Origin: Minisyncoccota bacterium
GTDB taxonomy: Bacteria; Patescibacteriota; Minisyncoccia; 2-02-FULL-40-12; IGHO2-01-FULL-4-A
Direction: 5' to 3'
Length of the DNA: 64,000 bases
Assembly (NCBI GenBank): GCA_036517175.1
Contig: DATDXQ010000028.1
Span: 2,113-66,112 of the forward strand
Shown here: positions 52,319 to 60,658 of the stretch, piece after piece
Layout of the letters: every line of letters begins with the position of its first letter
How positions within the stretch are numbered: position 1 is the first letter of the stretch
Position numbers and translations under genes: made by a program
Notes under the pieces: generated by a model
Told to the model about the DNA's origin: nothing
Database searches by the model: none
The model's input: only the letters and a program-made list of their open reading frames with translations

Positions 52319-52449
52319 TGTCTAACTACTATTTTAAAGAATAAACCAACAATACCATAGAAATATTGTATTGTAAAGTACATTGCTGAGCTGGGACTTA
52401 GTTGGAAATCGATATTATTGAATATCCAAGAGATTTACGCTTTCGCAAA

Positions 52450-52485
52450 TTAAAAAGCCGAGCATAACTCGGTCCTACATTTTAT
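52450..52485 (-). terminator. Rho-independent terminator.
   Basis: gccgagc-ataa-ctcggtc hairpin. Minus-strand T-run with a conserved TTTTTAATTTGCGAA tail. Confidence 0.5.
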
Positions 52486-53870: not shown

Positions 53871-54133
53871 TGACTTAAGTATATCAGTTGTAAAGCGGTT
53901 GTCAAGTAGTCTGGGGACGGTTGTCAACTTGGTTGTAAAGTTAGTGGCCGAGCTAGGTCTTCGTTGCTTCGCTCCTCCGAAGCTTTAGCAAAGGAGGGGG
54001 CATTTATTGATACCGAATATCCGGGAGATTTACTATTTTGCTACAAATTAAAAAGCGCCCTTCGATAAACTCAGAGCACTTCTTAATCTCAGTTTACACT
54101 GAGCTTGTCGAAGTGTTGCGGGGACAATCAATC

Positions 54134-54219
54134 GTTGGAACTACTTCTAAGCGATTAGTTGAGAAAGTTTTTAGGTATTACTTAAAAATAAAACCTATCG
54201 ATTAAGATAGGTGTTGGAA
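54134..54219 (-). repeat. Conserved 3'-end element copy A (GATTAGTTGA box plus terminator hairpin), flanked by GTTGGAA.
   Basis: Homologous to 54741-54840 and 58916-59030. Hairpin cctatc/gatagg. Confidence 0.55.
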
Positions 54220-54222
54220 ATA

Positions 54223-54633
54223 TCATCTACGGCCAGACCAGTTTTTACCACAGTCATCGCACCAATAGGCAGTAAAATCATATTCAGATTTTGATTTTAG
54301 GTTTGGGTGTTGGCATCTTTTTTGCAGTTCTATCAATTCATTTTCTACTACAGTAAGTTGGGCTTGAACTCCCTTTTTTCGAGACTCAATTTTTTTTCGG
54401 AGCTCAATTACATTATTCTGGGTAGCCTGAACAGATTCCTTAAATTCTTGACATCGGCAAGCGTTACAGCTTGTCCCAACTTTAATATTTTCTGACAATC
54501 CAATGTGATTATGATAATTGCGTGGGTGGCCACATTCACAGATTAATTCTGGATTGTAACGGCCAAAGACAGAGTGTGATACTTCGCTCACGCTCAACTC
54601 TTTGTTGTAAATTATCTGCCTAGAGAATATCAC
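54223..54633 (-). CDS. Zn-finger / coiled-coil small protein.
   Basis: 136 aa with no internal Met. CECGH...CNACRC and C-terminal CQHP...CDDCG. Central coiled coil. Non-ATG start; the exact start is uncertain. Confidence 0.45.
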   Translation of the reverse strand: MIFSRQIIYNKELSVSEVSHSVFGRYNPELICECGHPRNYHNHIGLSENIKVGTSCNACRCQEFKESVQATQNNVIELRKKIESRKKGVQAQLTVVENELIELQKRCQHPNLKSKSEYDFTAYWCDDCGKNWSGRR

Positions 54634-54740
54634 CCAAAAACCTTTTAATCAATATCCCTGCTGTCCCTCGATTTCCTCGGGATAAATCATTCCTTCGATA
54701 GTTCGGCAGGCACTTCGGCCGTGAGCCCAGCACCGAATGG

Positions 54741-54840
54741 CTCACTACTTGATCAGGGCAAGACTGCAAGCGATTAGTTGAAAGGGTGTTTAAATATTAC
54801 TTAGAAAATAAAAAAGAGGGATAAATCCCTCATCTTGGAA
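54741..54840 (-). repeat. Conserved 3'-end element copy B.
   Basis: GATTAGTTGA box at 54772-54781 plus hairpin gaggga/tccctc overlapping the RidA stop codon. Confidence 0.55.
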
Positions 54841-55276
54841 TAGCAGCAATTCCTCTGATTTCTACCATCGTATCTTCCAAGGGGTACTCCCACGGCACTT
54901 CTGATACCCAAACCTGACACCTGGCAGGCATGTTTCCTTTTTCTCTTGTAATACCGTATTGAGCAAAAAATTCACAGTAGGCAGAATTATAATCTTCACG
55001 GGATTTCTTTCGGTCTTTACAATCTTTCAAAAATACATCCATTGCTACAAACGAGCTGGCATCACCGCCTGCCTCCTCAACGATAGCAAGCATATTTTTC
55101 AATACTTGAGCGGTCTGTGGCCCATAACCACCTTCAACAACTGGCTCGCCATCACGGCTTTTATCATTTCCTGTTTGCCCAGCAAGAAAAAGAATTTTGT
55201 GGTTCATCGGGTCTACTAATACACCCTGACTGTATGCACCTGGAGTGGGAGTCTTATCAGTAAAAATATTCTGCAT
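54830..55276 (-). CDS. RidA/YjgF/Endoribonuclease L-PSP family protein.
   Basis: GAYSQGV..., GPQTAQVLKNM, VDVFL and the C-terminal PARCQVWVSEV...VEIRGIAA pattern. AAGGAG SD at the ATG at 55276. Confidence 0.65.
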   Translation of the reverse strand: MQNIFTDKTPTPGAYSQGVLVDPMNHKILFLAGQTGNDKSRDGEPVVEGGYGPQTAQVLKNMLAIVEEAGGDASSFVAMDVFLKDCKDRKKSREDYNSAYCEFFAQYGITREKGNMPARCQVWVSEVPWEYPLEDTMVEIRGIAAIPR

Positions 55277-55324
55277 TGTCTTTCTCCTTGTCAAAAATCA
55301 AAGTGATATTATCCTATCATATAT

Positions 55325-55591
55325 TTACAATAAGTCTAGCCCGGCTGATTTATCAGAACAAAAAAGCCGAGGGTTAGTCGGCATTTTGGGTAGTGCCCAA
55401 TTTGTAGGTGGATGGCGCAAGGGCTTCTTTATTCCACAATCCCAACAGTGACCACAATCGCTTATTAAATAATCGTGGTCGCAGGCCCACTTACCTACAT
55501 CGTCAGCACTAATTCTTTTTTTGAGGCCACTCAAACGAATTCTTAACACAAGATATTTAGCATTAGGGGCACGTTCGTATTCTGCTTTCAT
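55325..55591 (-). CDS. Small Cys-rich protein.
   Basis: CDHDYLISDCGHCWDCG cluster. The ATG at 55589-55591 lies 1 nt after the stop of the upstream gene. A hairpin/terminator is embedded in its last 15 codons. Confidence 0.4.
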   Translation of the reverse strand: MKAEYERAPNAKYLVLRIRLSGLKKRISADDVGKWACDHDYLISDCGHCWDCGIKKPLRHPPTNWALPKMPTNPRLFCSDKSAGLDLL

Positions 55592-55592
55592 T

Positions 55593-55811
55593 TTATTTCC
55601 AACCCAATACTTTCCAACCGTGTTCAGCATATAGGCCAAGGCCGTCTTTTCCTTCACAGCATTCAAGGAATGCATTTTCTGTATCAGACCAATAGAAATC
55701 GCCTGTAGAAACTTTTACACCAGGTCCTTCAAAGCGAAGCTTTACTGGTCTCGCCGTTCTCTTGGATGGTTCTGTGGTTTTCCAATTTCTATTTCTTGCT
55801 TTGGTAGCCAT
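55593..55811 (-). CDS. Small basic hypothetical protein (P1).
   Basis: 72 aa. GGAGGAAGAGA SD. Promoter/operator module upstream. Confidence 0.5.
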   Translation of the reverse strand: MATKARNRNWKTTEPSKRTARPVKLRFEGPGVKVSTGDFYWSDTENAFLECCEGKDGLGLYAEHGWKVLGWK

Positions 55812-55846
55812 TCTCTTCCTCCGATAATTTCAATGAACCTGGAAAC

Positions 55847-55875
55847 AAAATACACCTTATTGGTGTATTTTGCAA
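55847..55875 (-). promoter_or_regulatory. Promoter TTGCAA-N17-TATTTT with an embedded operator palindrome AAAATACACC-N5-GGTGTATTTT.
   Basis: Perfect 10-bp inverted repeat spanning the spacer. A near-identical copy sits at 57824-57852. Confidence 0.55.
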
Positions 55876-56072
55876 AATGCCAACCAGGTCTGGGACCCGG
55901 GAAAATTGTACTCGCCGCCTACTGGTGCTGGGCATACCACGACTTCTGTCTCTGGCATTTCGGAGCTCTCGCTCCTCAACTGTCACTCGCCAAAAGGTAT
56001 GTACCACACCTGCTGGCTTTGGTGTTTGGGCAAATCAAAAAGCGGCTAATGCCGCTTTAAACAACTGTTCAA

Positions 56073-56357
56073 TTAGTAAATAGCGAGGGTTTGTCCATTT
56101 ATTACTATCGCCACATCCCTATCCAACGAAGTACATTCAGAATCTACAACAAAATCATCGTTTTTCGTCCGTATCAAAAGAACCAGATGTGCTGGAAATC
56201 CCTCCTTCACTACAAGATCAAAACTAATATCCCCGCTAGAAACATCGCGTAGTTTTTTTCTTGTTTCAAAAACCGCTTCTGAATTTTCTATTGTACGCCC
56301 AGTCTCCTCCAGTGCTATAATCCGATCTTCTTGAGCAGATAACTGCCTTATTTTCAT
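56073..56357 (-). CDS. Hypothetical protein.
   Basis: 95 aa. ATG at 56355-56357 with an AGGAG SD. TTGACA-N17-TATTAT promoter at 56386-56414. The ORF-track start at 56435 is an over-extension. Confidence 0.45.
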   Translation of the reverse strand: MKIRQLSAQEDRIIALEETGRTIENSEAVFETRKKLRDVSSGDISFDLVVKEGFPAHLVLLIRTKNDDFVVDSECTSLDRDVAIVINGQTLAIY

Positions 56358-56623
56358 AACGACTCCTATTTTAAAAGACAATACAATAATACAACCTACA
56401 TGTGGTATTGTCAATCTACACTTTGGCCTGCACATCCACTCTATTGAGCTCTGTATTTCTTCGTTCTCACTCAGTCACTGGCCTCAGTACAAAATTACCT
56501 TCATTCGCTTGTTGCAGAGCTTCGACAGAATTGCCTGCCTGCCGTAGCTTTAGCAAAGTAGGGTGAGGAGTTGGTAAAAATAAAACCGAGGAGAGCTCGG
56601 TATTGGTAAAACGTAATTATTTA

Positions 56624-57358
56624 TTAGTATTCTGCGACTGTTAAATTCATGGATAAATCTAAAAAGGAATCTACGCAGAGAAATGGCCCACCGGGGGTTT
56701 CAAATGTTCTTTTATTTTGTAAGACTGGTTCGACACACACATAATCTTTAGGTGCATCGGTCCACAAGACAAGTTGGGATTTGACTGGCGCAAACGCTCC
56801 TCCAAGCTCCATCATTATATTTTTGCTTGGCATAGCGATAAGAATGGCCTCACTACTTATTCCTACTGATCTCGATTCACAAGAAAAACCATTGTAGGCA
56901 GCTCCACCATTCAAAACTCTTACAGTGCTCTCGTCTTTACATCCAAAATACGGATGAAATGCTGGAAGCACTGGGGCTGGTATAACTTCTTTGTCATCCA
57001 TCCGATCTATACGTAATGTCATCTTCAATCCATTAGTATATGCGTAGACTCCAATCTCGTATCCTAAAGACCATGGATAGCTTTCATTCCCAGGATGATG
57101 AAAAATTAGTTTGGCATTATTAGATTCGAGTTTTACATCTCGGGCCTCCAAATCTCGTAGATAACCATGCTTCTTCTTGCTTCTTGGGGATTGACCAAAC
57201 CATGGAGCACATATATGACAGCCACCACGTGCCTTATCTCCAATTTGGCGCCAAGGATACAATATCTCTAGCTTATCTACTACGGCAGAGGTAATAGTCC
57301 CGCCAGTAGAAGAGAGGTGAATTTCCGTTTGGCCATTTCTAATAACAATATCTTCCAT
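56624..57358 (-). CDS. D-hexose-6-phosphate mutarotase / aldose 1-epimerase family (YeaD-like).
   Basis: GGCHICAPWFG and HGYLR motifs. ATG at 57356-57358 with a GGAGG SD. TTGACA-N17-TATTTT promoter at 57400-57428. Confidence 0.6.
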   Translation of the reverse strand: MEDIVIRNGQTEIHLSSTGGTITSAVVDKLEILYPWRQIGDKARGGCHICAPWFGQSPRSKKKHGYLRDLEARDVKLESNNAKLIFHHPGNESYPWSLGYEIGVYAYTNGLKMTLRIDRMDDKEVIPAPVLPAFHPYFGCKDESTVRVLNGGAAYNGFSCESRSVGISSEAILIAMPSKNIMMELGGAFAPVKSQLVLWTDAPKDYVCVEPVLQNKRTFETPGGPFLCVDSFLDLSMNLTVAEY

Positions 57359-57565
57359 CGTGTCCTCCAGACCTAGCAAATTGTTAAATAGATAATAAAA
57401 AAATAGCACTTCATTGCTATTTTGTCAATATATTCTTGCCCTTCGTGATTACACTCAGGGCTGCGTCGGCCTTCGCCTCCTTGTTGCAGAAGTGTTGCGT
57501 GATTGGCAACAAATACTGCTTGATTTGAAAGAAGTCTACACTTTTGCAAATTAAAAAGTGCGATA

Positions 57566-57793
57566 TTATCGCACTTCAAATCTTCGGCCAAACCAATAAC
57601 AGCCGGGTTCTTCTTGAAGTTCCATTCGGCCACCCTCGTTATGCCATTGGGCAGGATTGTCTGCAAAAAGAGTTCTGCACTTATCGGAAGGTATAAATTC
57701 TTTTACAGTATATTTTCTTCCTTTTGTCAGCGCTGGTCCAATACCTTCCATTTTTTCATCAACACATTCGACCGTCTGGCCTTCTTGAAACAT
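57566..57793 (-). CDS. Small hypothetical protein (P2).
   Basis: 75 aa. AAGGAG SD. The operator-containing promoter at 57824-57852 is paralogous to the P1 promoter. Confidence 0.5.
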   Translation of the reverse strand: MFQEGQTVECVDEKMEGIGPALTKGRKYTVKEFIPSDKCRTLFADNPAQWHNEGGRMELQEEPGCYWFGRRFEVR

Positions 57794-57823
57794 ACACTTC
57801 TCCTTGTTAATTTAGCTGAAAAC

Positions 57824-57852
57824 AAAATACACCAATAAGGTGTATTTTGCAA
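57824..57852 (-). promoter_or_regulatory. Promoter TTGCAA-N17-TATTTT with operator palindrome AAAATACACC-N5-GGTGTATTTT (copy 2).
   Basis: Same palindrome arms as 55847-55871. The loop is AATAA rather than TTATT. Confidence 0.55.
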
Positions 57853-57949
57853 CTTATGCCAATCTTGTCTCATTTGTTGCGGAACTCTTACGCAGTTGAC
57901 ACCTTTTGATACCGAATATACAAAAGATTTGCAATTTTGCTCTGGTATA

Positions 57950-58146
57950 AAAAGTGAACCCCCGGGTCGTGGCCACGACATCGGGGGTTAATGTGCACGG
58001 ATTGTTTACCGTGCTGCCTGTTTTCGACCTTGCGGTCGGGCGACCTCCAATAGGGTTTGGGGAGCCTAGGCTCCTTATCCGCCTGTGGCGGACCTACCTT
58101 CGAACCCTCCTCTCGAGAAGCTACCTCAAGAGAAACTCAATGTTGT
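57950..58146 (-). ncRNA. Standalone roughly 200-nt GC-rich structured RNA with its own promoter and terminator. Class not identified.
   Basis: TTGACT-N17-TATACT promoter at 58153-58181. GC-rich terminator hairpin at 57957-57989 plus T5. No ORF. Much more GC-rich than the surrounding sequence. Confidence 0.55.
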
Positions 58147-58346
58147 GAATTAAGTATAGCATATCCTAAGTATAAAGTCAATAGCAACCAAAAACAGCCC
58201 TTGAAAGCTGTTTTTGCAAAGTGCCAAATGGGTCTGGGACCTGGAAATTTGTTGCAGAATTAGGACTTCGTTGGTATTTAATATTACCGGGTATCAAAGA
58301 AATTTATCAGTTTAATCTTGTAAATTAAAAGTCCGCAAAGCGGACA

Positions 58347-58529
58347 TTAGATAGATTTGGGAATTTTACCTTTACCATTGCAGGTCGGGCAGGTTGTAGT
58401 TCTGGTTTCTGGCATTGGAAAACCAAATAATCCTATATATGCAGCGTTCATGATTGTTTCTGTCTTTGAGCCAGACCCGCTGCAATTCCAGCAGATCTGC
58501 TCTTTATTTTGATCTTTGTTGGTTGCCAC
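58347..58529 (-). CDS. Small zinc-ribbon protein.
   Basis: 61 aa. CWNC...CPTC. ATG with a GGGGGTGA SD. TTGACA-N17-TATTGT promoter at 58568-58596. Confidence 0.5.
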   Translation of the reverse strand: MATNKDQNKEQICWNCSGSGSKTETIMNAAYIGLFGFPMPETRTTTCPTCNGKGKIPKSI

Positions 58530-58698
58530 CATACTATCACCCCCTATCTGTGTTAAGGAACAATAAAACAATACGCCATTTCTGGCGTATTGTCAATATT
58601 TGCACTTCGGCCTGTTGGCCTCAGTACAAAATTACCTTCGTAATTTATTTTTGTACCCTTCGGCTGTTGCCTACGGGCACTGCGTCGCCTTCGCTCCT

Positions 58699-58718
58699 TG
58701 TTGCGGGGGCAGGATTTG
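58699..58718 (-). repeat. 20-nt direct repeat of the tRNA-fMet 3' end (att-like).
   Basis: TGTTGCGGGGGCAGGATTTG is identical to 60584-60603 inside or adjacent to the tRNA gene. Confidence 0.6.
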
Positions 58719-58915
58719 GTTTCGCCTCTCGTTGGCTTCCGCCTCCTCGGGCTAACCACCACCTCGCGTGACTTTATGCCAATTGCATAAAGTCACATGC
58801 TCCGGCGTTCAAATACTGACGAAAGTGACACGGGTCACTTCCTCTCCCCGCAAACATATACGATAAATATAAACGGCTCACATGGTGAGCCGTTTATATT
58901 TTGGGGCAATCAAAT

Positions 58916-59030
58916 GTTGGAACCCTTCGACTACGCTCAGGACAGGCTTGTAAAAGATTAGTTGAGAATATATTTAGATATTATTTGGAGAATAAAAACG
59001 GCATTTAGCCGTATATATTTGTTGGTGAAG
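58916..59030 (-). repeat. Conserved 3'-end element copy C.
   Basis: GATTAGTTGA box at 58956-58965. Hairpin cggc/gccg at the stop codon of the 59005 gene. GTTGGAA / GTTGGTGAA flanks. Confidence 0.5.
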
Positions 59031-59472
59031 TCTCAAGCAGTAGGTCGCAATCTCTGCATACTAATCCGAATCCGCAACCTTGCCCGATTTCTTCAACCCT
59101 CTTTTCGTTTGAATGAGAACAACTTTTCTGTTTCCTTGTGAGTCCAGTCTTACCTTTGGCCTTTTTTCCTTCGACTACTTTGATAGAAAAACTGTGCTTA
59201 TACCGTTTCCCGCTACGATGAGCAGATTCTGTGAAAATTATCTTTGTACCCAGCGGGATTTTATCTAAAAAATTACTCGACTTTTCTATCTTCTCTGGTA
59301 TCAGGCAACTTTTGCCTTTCCTTGTTTCGACCTTACCGTGAGTAGACCATTTCTCATTAACAACGCCATTAACTACGAATTGTGTTGGAGTACGATTCGG
59401 TTCTGTTTTCTCCAGAACTCCTGTAGCAGTATATGTATACCATCCATCTATAGCATCTTTTCGTTTAGCCAT
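59005..59472 (-). CDS. Hypothetical protein with a C-terminal zinc ribbon.
   Basis: 155 aa. C-terminal CSHS...GCGFGLVCRDC. AAAGGAGAA SD. 1-nt TAATG overlap with the upstream gene. Confidence 0.45.
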   Translation of the reverse strand: MAKRKDAIDGWYTYTATGVLEKTEPNRTPTQFVVNGVVNEKWSTHGKVETRKGKSCLIPEKIEKSSNFLDKIPLGTKIIFTESAHRSGKRYKHSFSIKVVEGKKAKGKTGLTRKQKSCSHSNEKRVEEIGQGCGFGLVCRDCDLLLETSPTNIYG

Positions 59473-59774: not shown

Positions 59775-59943
59775 TCACCTCTAAGTTGAATAAGGACTGG
59801 AAAGATATTAGCAAACAAGGGGTTCCAAATCAATGTCCCCGATGTCATTCACGACATTCGCTAAGCATGCTCCGCATACAACTTGTTGTTGTGCGGGGTT
59901 CGCCAAGTTTTACAATGTCCCAGAAATGTACTAATCTTTTGAA

Positions 59944-60402
59944 ATGGATTTTGAATATTTTAACTCAAGGAAAGAAAAAGTCCGAGAAACTTACAATAAA
60001 CAAAAGGCTATTTTCTGTCCCTTTCTTCAGGCTCAGGTTGTTTTAAACTCAGATGGATTTCATCACTTACAATTCTCCGATAGAAGAGAGCGAGGCAAAG
60101 AAGAGCAACTATTAAAATTTAATCTATTACCTCTGGCGCTCGATATTATTAAAAAATCAGGAACGCTTCAGGAATACAGAAAGGAACCGGTTAGAATCGG
60201 GCGCACATCAAAAGACGGTTTTTCTACAACTAAAATCGCTGAATATTTTGGATTCGTAGCCATAGTCGGAGAAAAGAAAATTAAGATAAGGGTTATTGTG
60301 AGACGAATCGGCGATGGGAATTTTAGCTTTTGGAGTGTAATGCCAGACAGTAAGCTGAAAGGCGGTCAAAGATTATATGATTACGGAATCGAAGATAATT
60401 AA
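59944..60402 (+). CDS. Hypothetical protein.
   Basis: 152 aa. TTTACA-N17-TAATCT promoter-like sequence close to the ATG. Terminator hairpin at 60404-60440. Confidence 0.4.
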   Translation: MDFEYFNSRKEKVRETYNKQKAIFCPFLQAQVVLNSDGFHHLQFSDRRERGKEEQLLKFNLLPLALDIIKKSGTLQEYRKEPVRIGRTSKDGFSTTKIAEYFGFVAIVGEKKIKIRVIVRRIGDGNFSFWSVMPDSKLKGGQRLYDYGIEDN

Positions 60403-60585
60403 AACTAAAAAACGCCCCATGAGGCGTTTTTTAGTGTGCCTGTCTTCAGCTTTGGAAATCCTTAGCTGAACGGGGCTTGCGCCCACAAGCACGATGTAAA
60501 TGTAGCATACTTTAGTTAAAAAAAGCAAGTCCTGTTGATAATTCTATGAAAAACAGGAGATTTCTCTCCTGTTTCTCCTGCTCTG

Positions 60586-60658
60586 TTGCGGGGGCAGGAT
60601 TTGAACCTGCGATCTTTGGGTTATGAGCCCAACGAGATGACCACTTCTCCACCCCGCG
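60586..60658 (-). tRNA. Initiator tRNA-fMet (anticodon CAT).
   Basis: Cloverleaf folded by hand. C1:A72 mismatch. D-stem GAGA/TCTC with A11:U24. Three G-C pairs at the base of the anticodon stem (GGG/CCC). T-loop GGTTCAAATCC. Terminator hairpin at 60548-60580. Confidence 0.8.

What the first reader, a model, noticed from the sequence alone, without database searches (positions are those of the whole stretch)
54134..59030. Three homologous roughly 100-nt elements at the 3' ends of minus-strand genes, with a conserved GATTAGTTGA box and hairpins that covary in sequence but not in structure
Copies are at 54134-54219, 54741-54840 and 58916-59030. Each places the gene stop codon in or next to a terminator hairpin whose stems differ (cctatc, gaggga, cggc) but are compensatory. 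Each is followed on the transcribed strand by the conserved box (TAAGTAATAnnTAAAnnnnnTTTCAACTAATC), and copies A and C are flanked by GTTGGAA. This pattern fits cassette-boundary or recombination sites, as in integrase-less attC-like arrays. It also fits conserved 3'UTR regulatory RNAs.
Basis: seen in the sequence. Interest (0 to 1): 0.55.

Follow-up and report, generated by a model that had tools for sequence, protein, structure and literature searches.

The report
Antisense micro-ORF module at cassette junctions
The three repeats are copies of an unannotated module of candidate-phyla-radiation (CPR) bacteria: a tiny conserved gene on the opposite strand plus a terminator, ending in a 10-base copy of the initiator tRNA 3' end where neighbouring DNA blocks are swapped, so they appear to mark the joints of a gene-cassette array with no integrase gene within reach.

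Summary
The "GATTAGTTGA box" is the middle of a 25-40-codon open reading frame (sORF) on the + strand, convergent with the minus-strand genes. Consensus: TTG-LRGQSIVGT-(linker)-KRLVEKVFRYYLENK-stop.

Among nine copies that were not retrieved by a peptide search, this frame alone has no stops, 49.5% synonymous codon differences and conservative replacements. Linker indels are all multiples of three.

The hairpins are ordinary minus-strand intrinsic terminators drawn from a small pool of discrete variants; they are not covarying stems. The box lies downstream of the terminator U-tract, and 23 copies share no RNA fold, so it is not a 3'UTR RNA.

The module's outer edge is TGTTGCGGGG, the reverse complement of the initiator tRNA (tRNA-fMet) 3' end; that gene lies at 60585-60658. 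Across 18 related CPR loci (Saccharibacteria, Yanofskybacteria, groundwater metagenomes), left and right flanks reassort exactly at this 10-nt core. This is an att-like signature of serial site-specific insertion.

No recombinase gene, parent protein, Pfam, PDB or Rfam match was found. Cassette boundary: supported. attC membership: not met. The function of the micro-ORF is unknown.

The parts
54114..54123 (+). Core of copy A: TGTTGCGGGG, the reverse complement of the tRNA-fMet 3' end CCCCGCAACA. This is the junction point.
   Evidence: Homology blocks to other loci start exactly here.
54116..54205 (+). sORF A, starting at the conserved TTG (a GTG lies at 54113): LRGQSIVGTTSKRLVEKVFRYYLKIKPID*. 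The stop is in the hairpin loop.
   Evidence: nhmmer 74 bits.
54193..54212 (-). Intrinsic terminator of minus-strand gene 54223-54633 (ACCTATCTTAATCGATAGGT + TTTTATTTTT). The U-tract is the reverse complement of the sORF tail codons. The same hairpin type occurs in L007 and L008.
54753..54824 (+). sORF remnant B: SGQDCKRLVERVFKYYLENKKEG*. There is no start codon or core, an in-frame TGA lies just upstream, and the N-part is decayed and split by a ~50-nt insertion.
   Evidence: (32 bits, model positions 29-79).
54816..54831 (-). Intrinsic terminator of the RidA-like gene 54830-55294 (GAGGGATTTATCCCTC + TTTTTTATTT). The same type occurs in L005 at 2856-2872.
58901..59008 (+). sORF C: (TTG)GQSNVGTLRLRSGQACKRLVENIFRYYLENKNGI*. 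It has a 21-nt in-frame linker insertion shared with L014_3580. The core is degenerate (58899 TTTTGGGGC).
   Evidence: (49 bits).
58998..59012 (-). Intrinsic terminator of gene 59005-59472 (ACGGCTAAATGCCGT + TTTTATTCTC). It also scores as a terminator on the + strand. The same type occurs in L009 and L011.
60585..60658 (-). Initiator tRNA-fMet gene (C1:A72 mismatch, three G-C pairs in the anticodon stem). Its 3' end is the core sequence, and its native trailer hairpin follows at 60548-60584.
58699..58868 (-). tRNA-fMet-like structured RNA. Its last 20 nt are identical to the tRNA 3' end. Its core at 58699 is the proximal junction of the cassette array.
58250..58258 (+). Core copy TGTTGCAGA (cassette junction).
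57875..57883 (+). Core copy TGTTGCGGA. The left flank is a promoter module also found next to sORF modules in L009 and L010. The right flank is a different 3' module.
57482..57490 (+). Core copy TGTTGCAGA (cassette junction).
56510..56518 (+). Core copy TGTTGCAGA (cassette junction).

Best explanation
Each element is a copy of a portable ~80-110-bp module found in CPR (Patescibacteria) genomes. Read on the + strand, the module has three parts.

1. A 10-nt core, TGTTGCGGGG, identical to the 3' end of the initiator tRNA gene on the other strand.
2. A micro-ORF (sORF) of 25-40 codons that starts at the TTG inside the core.
   - Its N-part (LRGQSIVGT) overlaps a DNA-level site, TTGCGGGG-N10-GTTGGAAC.
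   - Its C-part (KRLVEKVFRYYLENK) is under protein-level selection.
3. A hairpin holding the sORF stop codon. This hairpin is the intrinsic terminator of a convergent, highly variable small gene.

Proposed mechanism: single-gene cassettes (promoter, gene, terminator, sORF arm) have been inserted one after another by site-specific recombination at the tRNA-fMet 3'-end core, or at copies of it such as the tRNA-like RNA at 58699. The recombinase would be encoded elsewhere. The sORF module is the element arm next to the core, giving an attR-type junction sORF-core-tRNA trailer.

Shown:
- the coding signature of the sORF;
- the terminators;
- the identity of the core to the tRNA end;
- exact reassortment of flanks at the core;
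- linkage to tRNA-fMet.

Inferred:
- that the reassortment is catalysed by a site-specific recombinase;
- that cassettes move as units;
- that the sORF is translated today;
- what the peptide does. My guess is a cassette-borne microprotein whose expression depends on what lies across the junction, but this is untested.
For: Coding signature:
- In nine copies not retrieved through a peptide pattern, the sORF frame has 142 of 287 codon differences synonymous, a mean BLOSUM62 of +1.3 for replacements, and 0 stops. The other five frames have 7-43% synonymous differences, negative BLOSUM means, and 9-21 stops.
- Third-position entropy is 0.92, against 0.37 and 0.25 at positions 1 and 2.
- Synonymous first-position switches occur (CGA/AGA, TTA/CTG).
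- Linker lengths are 8, 11, 17, 32, 35 and 41 nt. All are in frame.
- Divergent copies found by DNA profile keep conservative replacements, for example VVEKIWRFYV.

Terminators.

Spread: 26 copies in the window plus 18 loci, including Saccharibacteria and Yanofskybacteria MAGs.

Association with genes: 26 of 26 copies lie tail-to-tail with a minus-strand gene. These genes are mostly unrelated: only five similar pairs among the 26.

Core and junctions:
- TGTTGCRG occurs 7 times on the + strand within 54.1-60.6 kb and once on that strand in the rest of the window.
- Left and right flanks swap exactly at the core. L014_6005 is 93% identical to the L012 tRNA trailer on the left and 78% identical to window copy A on the right. 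Two junctions in L017 share a 96%-identical left flank but have a sORF and a tRNA-like RNA on the right.
- A tRNA-core-promoter junction exists in L019.
- All four loci that contain tRNA-fMet (the window, L005, L012 and L019) have the sORF copies downstream of it in the same relative orientation.
- The general paradigm of serial integrations separated by partial tRNA copies is described for tycheposons (10.1101/2020.12.28.424599).
Against: - No recombinase gene was found among 435 ORFs of the window and loci.
- No excised or empty-site pair for one and the same cassette was observed.
- The window's tRNA-fMet keeps its native trailer, so the array is not inserted directly into it.
- In L017 the duplicated segment includes about 45 nt of trailer. 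Homologous recombination could therefore contribute there.
- The sORF has no Shine-Dalgarno sequence, although the array genes have clear ones. It relies on a TTG start. In several contexts it sits between two terminators with no room for a promoter.
- Copy B cannot be translated as a whole, yet keeps an intact C-part.
- Most extra copies were retrieved with a peptide pattern. This inflates apparent amino-acid conservation, which is why the test was restricted to nine unbiased copies.
Confidence: 0.55

Rival explanations
1. Relic reading. The sORF is not a gene in its own right. It is the preserved end (N- or C-terminal stub) of a larger gene of a mobile element, such as a recombinase gene that spans or abuts attP as in SSV-type integration. 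It would be copied at each insertion, so the coding signature would reflect selection in the unseen donor and not in these copies.
For: - There is no ribosome-binding site and often no room for a promoter.
- Copy B is untranslatable yet its C-part is intact.
- The ORF begins exactly at the att-like core.
- The C-part loosely resembles the first helix of Xer/IntI N-terminal domains. This comparison is from memory and is not significant in any test.
Against: - No longer protein carries this sequence. A word-indexed profile search of 5.8 billion proteins and an exhaustive hmmsearch of 1.84 billion representatives find only the 54-aa P0001.
- All 26 genomic copies are short ORFs that end at the same place.
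- There are none in IMG/VR.
- There is no Pfam hit.
Confidence: 0.2
2. Integron-type attC sites. The elements are folded-strand recombination sites of an integron-like array that lacks its integrase (a CALIN-like array).
For: - Co-oriented small ORFan genes each carry a 3' element made of a variable hairpin and conserved motifs.
- Junction reassortment occurs.
- An imperfect 16-bp inverted repeat flanks the variable-length linker, with 73.6% of cells paired.
Against: - There is no R''/R' inverse core pair. GTTGCGG deviates from GTTRRRY and has no RYYYAAC partner.
- RNAalifold finds 0 consensus pairs.
- The inverted repeat shows no covariation (86 of 500 shuffles reach the observed pairing).
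- The cassettes have their own promoters and terminators.
- The conserved part evolves as codons.
- No IntI-like gene was found.
Confidence: 0.07
3. Conserved 3'UTR or small regulatory RNA of the minus-strand genes.
For: The element sits next to gene 3' ends. Copy A folds somewhat better than shuffles on the + strand (z = -3.8).
Against: - On the minus strand the box lies after the terminator and its U-tract.
- The minus-strand folds of the three copies show nothing beyond the terminator hairpin (z = -0.9 to -2.1).
- There is no consensus structure in 23 copies.
- There is no Rfam hit.
- The substitution pattern is codon-periodic in a + strand frame, with in-frame indels.
Confidence: 0.04
4. 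No mobility. The module is simply an ordinary multi-copy microprotein gene with its own terminator, and the 10-nt match to the tRNA end is coincidental.
For: The coding signature. No recombinase was found.
Against: - The same 10-mer ends the tRNA-fMet, the tRNA-like RNA and at least three other module types. It is always the exact switch point between unrelated flanks, including genuine tRNA trailers.
- There are several diverged copies per locus, each beside a different gene.
- The copies cluster downstream of tRNA-fMet.
Confidence: 0.1

Closest known systems
Integron gene cassettes and attC sites (including integrase-less CALIN arrays)
   Same: - Arrays of co-oriented, small, mostly unknown-function genes.
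- Each gene carries at its 3' end a recombination-associated element with a variable central part and conserved ends.
- A short conserved core at every junction.
- Arrays can lack a linked integrase.
   Different: - No RYYYAAC...GTTRRRY inverse cores and no conserved folded-strand structure.
- The core is the 3' end of initiator tRNA.
- Each cassette has its own promoter and intrinsic terminator.
- The conserved arm encodes a peptide on the opposite strand.
- No IntI gene.
tRNA-targeted integrative islands with serial insertions, such as Prochlorococcus tycheposons (10.1101/2020.12.28.424599)
   Same: - Units separated by partial copies of the target tRNA 3' end.
- Newer insertions push older ones outwards.
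- Degenerate remnants are present.
- The island lies next to an intact tRNA gene.
   Different: - Units here are 0.4-1 kb single-gene cassettes without integrase or replication genes.
- The repeated segment is only about 10 nt (20 nt at 58699), compared with about 40 nt in tycheposons.
- A tRNA-like RNA also serves as a partner.
Xer-dependent modules (pdif modules of Acinetobacter plasmids, IMEX elements). This comparison is from my own knowledge.
   Same: Small cargo modules without their own recombinase, bounded by short recombination sites and presumably moved by a host enzyme.
   Different: There is no 11-6-11 dif-like palindrome, the sites are not in alternating orientation, and the site is tRNA-derived.
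Convergent gene pairs that share a bidirectional intrinsic terminator, such as the type I toxin-antitoxin par/Fst locus. This comparison is from my own knowledge.
   Same: A short ORF of about 30 codons is convergent with another transcript and ends in the shared terminator hairpin.
   Different: The peptide is basic and amphipathic rather than a hydrophobic membrane toxin. The partner is a variable protein gene and not an antisense RNA. There are no 5' direct repeats.
SSV-type integration in archaeal viruses, where attP lies inside an ORF. This comparison is from my own knowledge.
   Same: The tRNA-derived att core lies within an open reading frame.
   Different: The ORF is 25-40 codons long, has no integrase homology, and no complementary half was found.

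Membership tests
Integron attC site | Inverse core sites R'' (RYYYAAC) and R' (GTTRRRY) at the two ends | tested here: not met
   The core GTTGCGG departs from GTTRRRY at two positions, and no complementary RYYYAAC partner exists at the other end. The AAC-containing 7-mers (TCTCAAC, TTCCAAC, CCGCAAC) are direct repeats, not inverted (sequence).
Integron attC site | Conserved imperfect hairpin of the single strand (structure conserved, sequence free) | tested here: not met
   RNAalifold on 23 copies gives 0 pairs. A hand-defined 16-bp inverted repeat is 73.6% paired but has no covariation.
Integron attC site | Integron integrase (IntI) adjacent to attI | tested here: not met
   jackhmmer with XerD and Hin against 435 ORFs (>=80 aa) of the window and 18 loci gives no hit. 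The rest of the genome could not be searched.
Rho-independent (intrinsic) terminator | GC-rich stem-loop followed by a T-run directly after a stop codon | tested here: met
   Sites on the minus strand at 54212-54193, 54831-54816 and 59012-58998. The region holds 25 such sites against 7.0 expected.
tRNA-targeted site-specific integration (att sites) | Direct repeats of the tRNA 3' end flanking the inserted units, with the tRNA intact | tested here: met
   There are 7 TGTTGCRG copies on the tRNA-antisense strand within 6.5 kb, including one of 20 nt. The tRNA-fMet is intact.
tRNA-targeted site-specific integration (att sites) | Chimeric junctions (element arm-core-native tRNA flank; tRNA-core-element arm) | tested here: met
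   sORF-core-trailer junctions occur in L001 and twice in L014. A tRNA-core-promoter junction occurs in L019. Identity switches at the core.
tRNA-targeted site-specific integration (att sites) | Element-encoded tyrosine or serine recombinase | tested here: not met
   None found in the window or loci.
tRNA-targeted site-specific integration (att sites) | Excision or empty-site polymorphism for the same unit | not testable with these tools
   This needs read-level or strain-level data.
Protein-coding small ORF | Open frame, excess of synonymous and conservative change, in-frame indels | tested here: met
Protein-coding small ORF | Start codon with ribosome-binding site, and a promoter | tested here: inconclusive
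   The TTG is invariant in all copies that keep the N-part. There is no Shine-Dalgarno sequence. A weak promoter-like site (9 of 12) lies upstream of copy A only, at 54007-54036.
Protein-coding small ORF | Evidence of expression | not testable with these tools
   No transcriptome or proteome data are available.
Known RNA family (Rfam 15) | Covariance-model match | tested here: not met
   Only the tRNA passes threshold. Nothing in the elements scores above chance level; the only hit overlapping one, AaHKsRNA82 over copy C, has E = 4.1, far below its gathering score.
Known protein family (Pfam, PDB) | Profile match of the peptide | tested here: not met

The most novel reading that the evidence does not exclude
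CPR bacteria may possess an integron-like system for acquiring genes that has not been described.

- Autonomous single-gene cassettes (own promoter, gene, terminator) are captured one after another at the 3' end of the initiator tRNA gene, or of a tRNA-fMet-like RNA, by a recombinase acting in trans.
- The cassette-side recombination arm doubles as the start of a conserved 25-40-residue microprotein gene. Its expression would therefore depend on which DNA lies across the junction, for example only in the excised circle or next to a neighbour's promoter.
Probability: 0.3. Interest if true: 0.8.

Novelty: new variant of a known kind. Interest (0 to 1): 0.62.

Why it matters
CPR/Patescibacteria have tiny genomes, and how they exchange genes is poorly understood. 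A conserved, easily searchable junction module (core plus sORF) has three uses:
- It would let arrays of variable small genes be mapped across the radiation.
- It would point to the recombinase by co-occurrence.
- It would add an unannotated microprotein family that standard gene callers miss. Only one of the 26 copies found here, L001_2862, has its product (P0001) in a 5.8-billion-protein collection.

The finding is also a caution. A conserved "non-coding box with variable hairpins" at gene 3' ends can be an antisense micro-ORF plus terminators.

Tried and rejected
- **Rfam.** Searches at gathering and at E<=5 returned only the tRNA.
- **Parent protein.** I searched for a longer protein carrying the peptide with a word-indexed profile search and an exhaustive hmmsearch of 1.84 billion representatives. 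Only the 54-aa P0001 matched. P0002 and P0003 are repeat or chance hits.
- **Pfam and PDB.** A Pfam scan of the 25 aligned peptides and a PDB profile search found nothing.
- **Viral origin.** Two DNA patterns found no matches in IMG/VR.
- **Decayed tRNA-fMet copy.** Beyond the core, local alignment to three tRNA-fMet genes is no better than shuffles for 21 of 23 copies. The resemblance GCAGTTCCAA / GCAGGTTCAAA remains only a hint.
- **Conserved RNA structure.** None was found.
- **Linked recombinase.** This is less sensitive than a Pfam scan of every ORF, which I did not run.
- **tRNA primer-binding site of a retroelement.** The + strand is complementary to the tRNA 3' end. I rejected this for three reasons: no reverse transcriptase is present, most copies match the gene version (CCCCGCAACA, no CCA), and some carry the DNA trailer.
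- **L006 (Pseudoalteromonas).** This locus is a chance peptide match.
- **Second 3' module family (D3).** I tried to collect more copies by regex, without success.
- **Literature.** Four full-text searches and a term search within PMC12455944 found no description of this module or of tRNA-fMet cassette arrays in CPR.

Full report
**1. The observation**

The three elements exist. The repeat finder groups them as one family (D2) at 63-74% identity. The exact 10-mer GATTAGTTGA occurs three times in the 64-kb window, only in these elements. Each element adjoins a minus-strand terminator-like hairpin followed by a T-run: 54212->54193, 54831->54816 and 59012->58998. The 9.3-kb region holds 25 such sites against 7.0 expected.

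The surrounding 52-60.6 kb is a row of small minus-strand genes. Each has its own sigma-70-like promoter and terminator. They are mostly of unknown function; the recognisable ones are a RidA-like protein, an aldose-epimerase-like protein and zinc-ribbon proteins. The row ends at an initiator tRNA-fMet gene at 60585-60658 on the minus strand.

**2. The strand**

Read on the + strand, all three elements give an in-frame peptide that ends in the hairpin:
- A: VLRGQSIVGTTSKRLVEKVFRYYLKIKPID*
- B: SGQDCKRLVERVFKYYLENKKEG*
- C: ILGQSNVGTLRLRSGQACKRLVENIFRYYLENKNGI*

The differences among the copies are mainly synonymous (AAG/AAA, CGA/AGA, GAG/GAA, TAC/TAT, TTA/TTG) or conservative (K/R/N, V/I). The "conserved box" is the stretch coding for KRLVE. 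The terminator U-tract TTTTTATTTTC is the reverse complement of the codons for E-N-K.

**3. Relatives**

A profile of the peptides found a single protein among 5.8 billion: P0001, 54 aa. An exhaustive hmmsearch of 1.84 billion representatives found the same and nothing else credible. Pfam and PDB gave nothing.

Back-translated pattern scans located the same short ORF in several sources:
- two Saccharibacteria MAGs, a Yanofskybacteria MAG and a 4.6-kb contig;
- 13 metagenome contigs, several from groundwater.

A DNA profile then found 26 copies in all, three of them in the window. Up to three copies occur per contig.

The consensus on the + strand is NTG TTGCGGGGACAATCAATCGTTGGAAC TGCTTCTAAGCGA TTAGTTGAGAAAGTTTTTAGGTATTATTTA GAAAATAAAAA, followed by a hairpin. 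IMG/VR has none.

**4. Is it coding?**

Most relatives were retrieved through a peptide pattern. I therefore restricted the test to nine copies found otherwise: the three window copies and six second copies in fetched loci. Two of those six were detected only by the DNA profile.
- The sORF frame has 49.5% synonymous codon differences, a mean BLOSUM62 of +1.3 for replacements, and no stops.
- The antisense frame that shares its third positions has 43.5% synonymous differences, but a BLOSUM mean of -0.86 and 10 stops.
- The other four frames have 7-13% synonymous differences.

Third-position entropy over all copies is 0.92, against 0.37 and 0.25 at positions 1 and 2. The linker between the N-part and the C-part has six length classes (8, 11, 17, 32, 35 and 41 nt), all in frame. 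The most divergent copy reads VVEKIWRFYV.

I conclude that the C-part evolved under protein-level selection. The N-part behaves differently. Its amino acids vary (S/R/P/Q, I/D/L/N, G/R/E), while CGG, CAA and GTT-GGA-AC are fixed even at synonymous sites. This points to a DNA-level constraint on TTGCGGGG-N10-GTTGGAAC.

**5. Not an RNA element of the minus-strand genes**

- On the minus strand the box follows the terminator and its U-tract.
- RNAalifold on 23 module bodies predicts no pair.
- Single-sequence folds show only the terminator hairpin.
- An imperfect 16-bp inverted repeat around the linker is 73.6% paired but shows no covariation.
- Rfam has no match.

**6. The hairpins**

The stems do not covary. 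They are discrete variants that travel with the module:
- CCTATCGATTAAGATAGG in A, L007 and L008;
- ACGGCATTTAGCCGT in C, L009 and L011;
- GAGGGATAA(A/T)TCCCTC in B and L005;
- GTGCGRGGTTATCGCAC in L002, L010, L011, L015 and L019.

Each variant occurs beside unrelated convergent genes. All 26 copies lie tail-to-tail with a minus-strand gene, and these genes are mostly unrelated, with only five similar pairs among the 26.

**7. The core and the junctions**

Conservation stops abruptly at (N)TGTTGCGGGG. This is the reverse complement of CCCCGCAACA, the last bases of the tRNA-fMet gene plus one.

In the window, TGTTGCRG occurs on the + strand at 54114, 56510, 57482, 57875, 58250, 58699 and 60584 (the tRNA itself), and only once on that strand elsewhere in the window.

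I clustered the 60 nt on each side of every core in the window array and the loci. The result is combinatorial reassortment.
- Right partners: the sORF module, tRNA-fMet (two types), a ~170-nt tRNA-fMet-like RNA, and at least three other module types.
- Left partners: three types of tRNA trailer hairpin, two promoter-module types, and others.

Identity switches exactly at the core:
- L014_6005 is 93% identical to the L012 tRNA trailer on the left and 78% identical to window copy A on the right.
- L009 and window 57875 are 76% identical on the left and 13% on the right.
- Two junctions in L017 are 96% identical on the left and 13% on the right.

Two junction types fit an att model:
- sORF-core-native trailer (L001 once, L014 twice) looks like attR.
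- tRNA-core-cassette promoter (L019) looks like attL.

In all four loci that contain tRNA-fMet, the sORF copies lie downstream of it in the same relative orientation. This is the pattern left by serial site-specific insertions at a tRNA 3' end, as described for tycheposons (10.1101/2020.12.28.424599).

Beyond the core, the module is not significantly tRNA-like.

**8. What is missing**

- No tyrosine or serine recombinase was detected in the window or within +/-6 kb of the related loci.
- No excised or empty-site pair was available.
- The window's tRNA keeps its own trailer. The array proper starts at the core of the tRNA-like RNA at 58699.
- The sORF has an invariant TTG but no Shine-Dalgarno sequence, and in trailer contexts there is no room for a promoter.
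- Copy B is a decayed copy: its core and N-part are mutated, it has a ~50-nt insertion and an in-frame TGA. Its C-part is nevertheless intact.

These points keep alive the rival that the coding signature is inherited from an unseen donor gene. Against that rival, two exhaustive searches found no such gene.

**9. Verdict**

The elements are neither attC sites nor 3'UTR RNAs, and the hairpin "covariation" is an artefact of comparing non-homologous terminators.

The best-supported description has three parts:
- a CPR-wide, unannotated micro-ORF-plus-terminator module;
- its outer 10 nt are a copy of the tRNA-fMet 3' end;
- it marks junctions of an array of single-gene cassettes that has no integrase gene within the DNA examined.

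Confidence by claim:

| Claim | Confidence |
|---|---|
| Coding signature of the sORF | ~0.85 |
| Junction at the core | ~0.8 |
| Site-specific recombination as the cause | ~0.55 |
| A currently translated, functional microprotein | ~0.5 |

I found no description of this module in the searchable literature.

Noticed in passing
window 58699-58868 (-): A ~170-nt strongly structured element (MFE z = -5.1). Its 5' end (GCGGGGAGAGGAAGTG) and last 20 nt (CAAATCCTGCCCCCGCAACA) copy tRNA-fMet. It is conserved in L004 7575-7745, with hairpins replaced but still pairing, and in L017. Variants occur in L011 and at L004 5484. Neither Rfam nor ARAGORN calls it. It behaves like the tRNA as a partner of the core.
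   Followed up: partly
window 57950-58148 (-), promoter 58181->58153: A 200-nt GC-rich multi-hairpin region with no ORF, behind a good promoter (TTGACT-17-TATACT). It occupies a cassette slot. Fold z = -4.8 and there is no Rfam hit. It may be an ncRNA cassette.
   Followed up: partly
window 58567-58596, 57400-57428, 56386-56414, 52349-52377, ~55850-55875, ~57825-57852 (-): The cassette promoters are embedded in perfect 10-12-bp palindromes that span the -35 to -10 region (TTGACAATACGCC...GGCGTATTGT; CAAAATACACC...GGTGTATTTTG). The same design occurs in L005, L009, L010 and L019. They could be operators, or combined terminator-promoter insulators.
   Followed up: no
window 52412-52460, 54007-54055, 57906-57954 (+): A second family of 3' modules (repeat finder D3). 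On the minus strand it reads hairpin-TTTTTAATTTGCAAAA...TAAATCTC...GGATATTCGGTATCAA, placed between a terminator and a core. One copy scores as a + strand promoter (TTGATA-18-TACTAT at 54007-54036), about 80 nt upstream of sORF A.
   Followed up: partly
window 60403-60511 (-) and 59944-60402 (+): A small-RNA-like hairpin region with its own terminator follows the tRNA-fMet trailer. It gives a sub-threshold sraL hit only. Next to it is a 152-aa + strand gene of unknown function. The pair is 85% identical in L015. The next gene's promoter region (59785-59865) is shared with L005, where a 210-aa + strand gene and an apparent small RNA, seen by eye in the sequence and not compared, occupy the equivalent positions.
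   Followed up: no
window 59005-59170 (-); L009 884-1050; L011 6108-6305: Three otherwise different convergent genes (155, 215 and 65 aa) share only a C-terminal ~52-aa cysteine-rich domain (...SHSNEKRVEEIGQGCGFGLVCRDCDLLLETSPTNIYG), together with the same sORF and hairpin variant. The conserved block therefore extends into the gene's 3' end.
   Followed up: partly
window 54153-54185 with 54125-54141 (module interior): An imperfect 16-bp inverted repeat (CAACTAATCGCTTAGAA / TTCCAACGATTGATTG) flanks the variable-length linker of the sORF module. It is present in most copies but without compensatory change. It could be a protein-binding palindrome at the DNA level.
   Followed up: yes
L005 (contig CAYHKI010000085.1): This 4.6-kb contig is binned as 'Gammaproteobacteria', but it carries the same tRNA-fMet array architecture as the Saccharibacteria and Yanofskybacteria loci. 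It is probably mis-binned CPR DNA.
   Followed up: no
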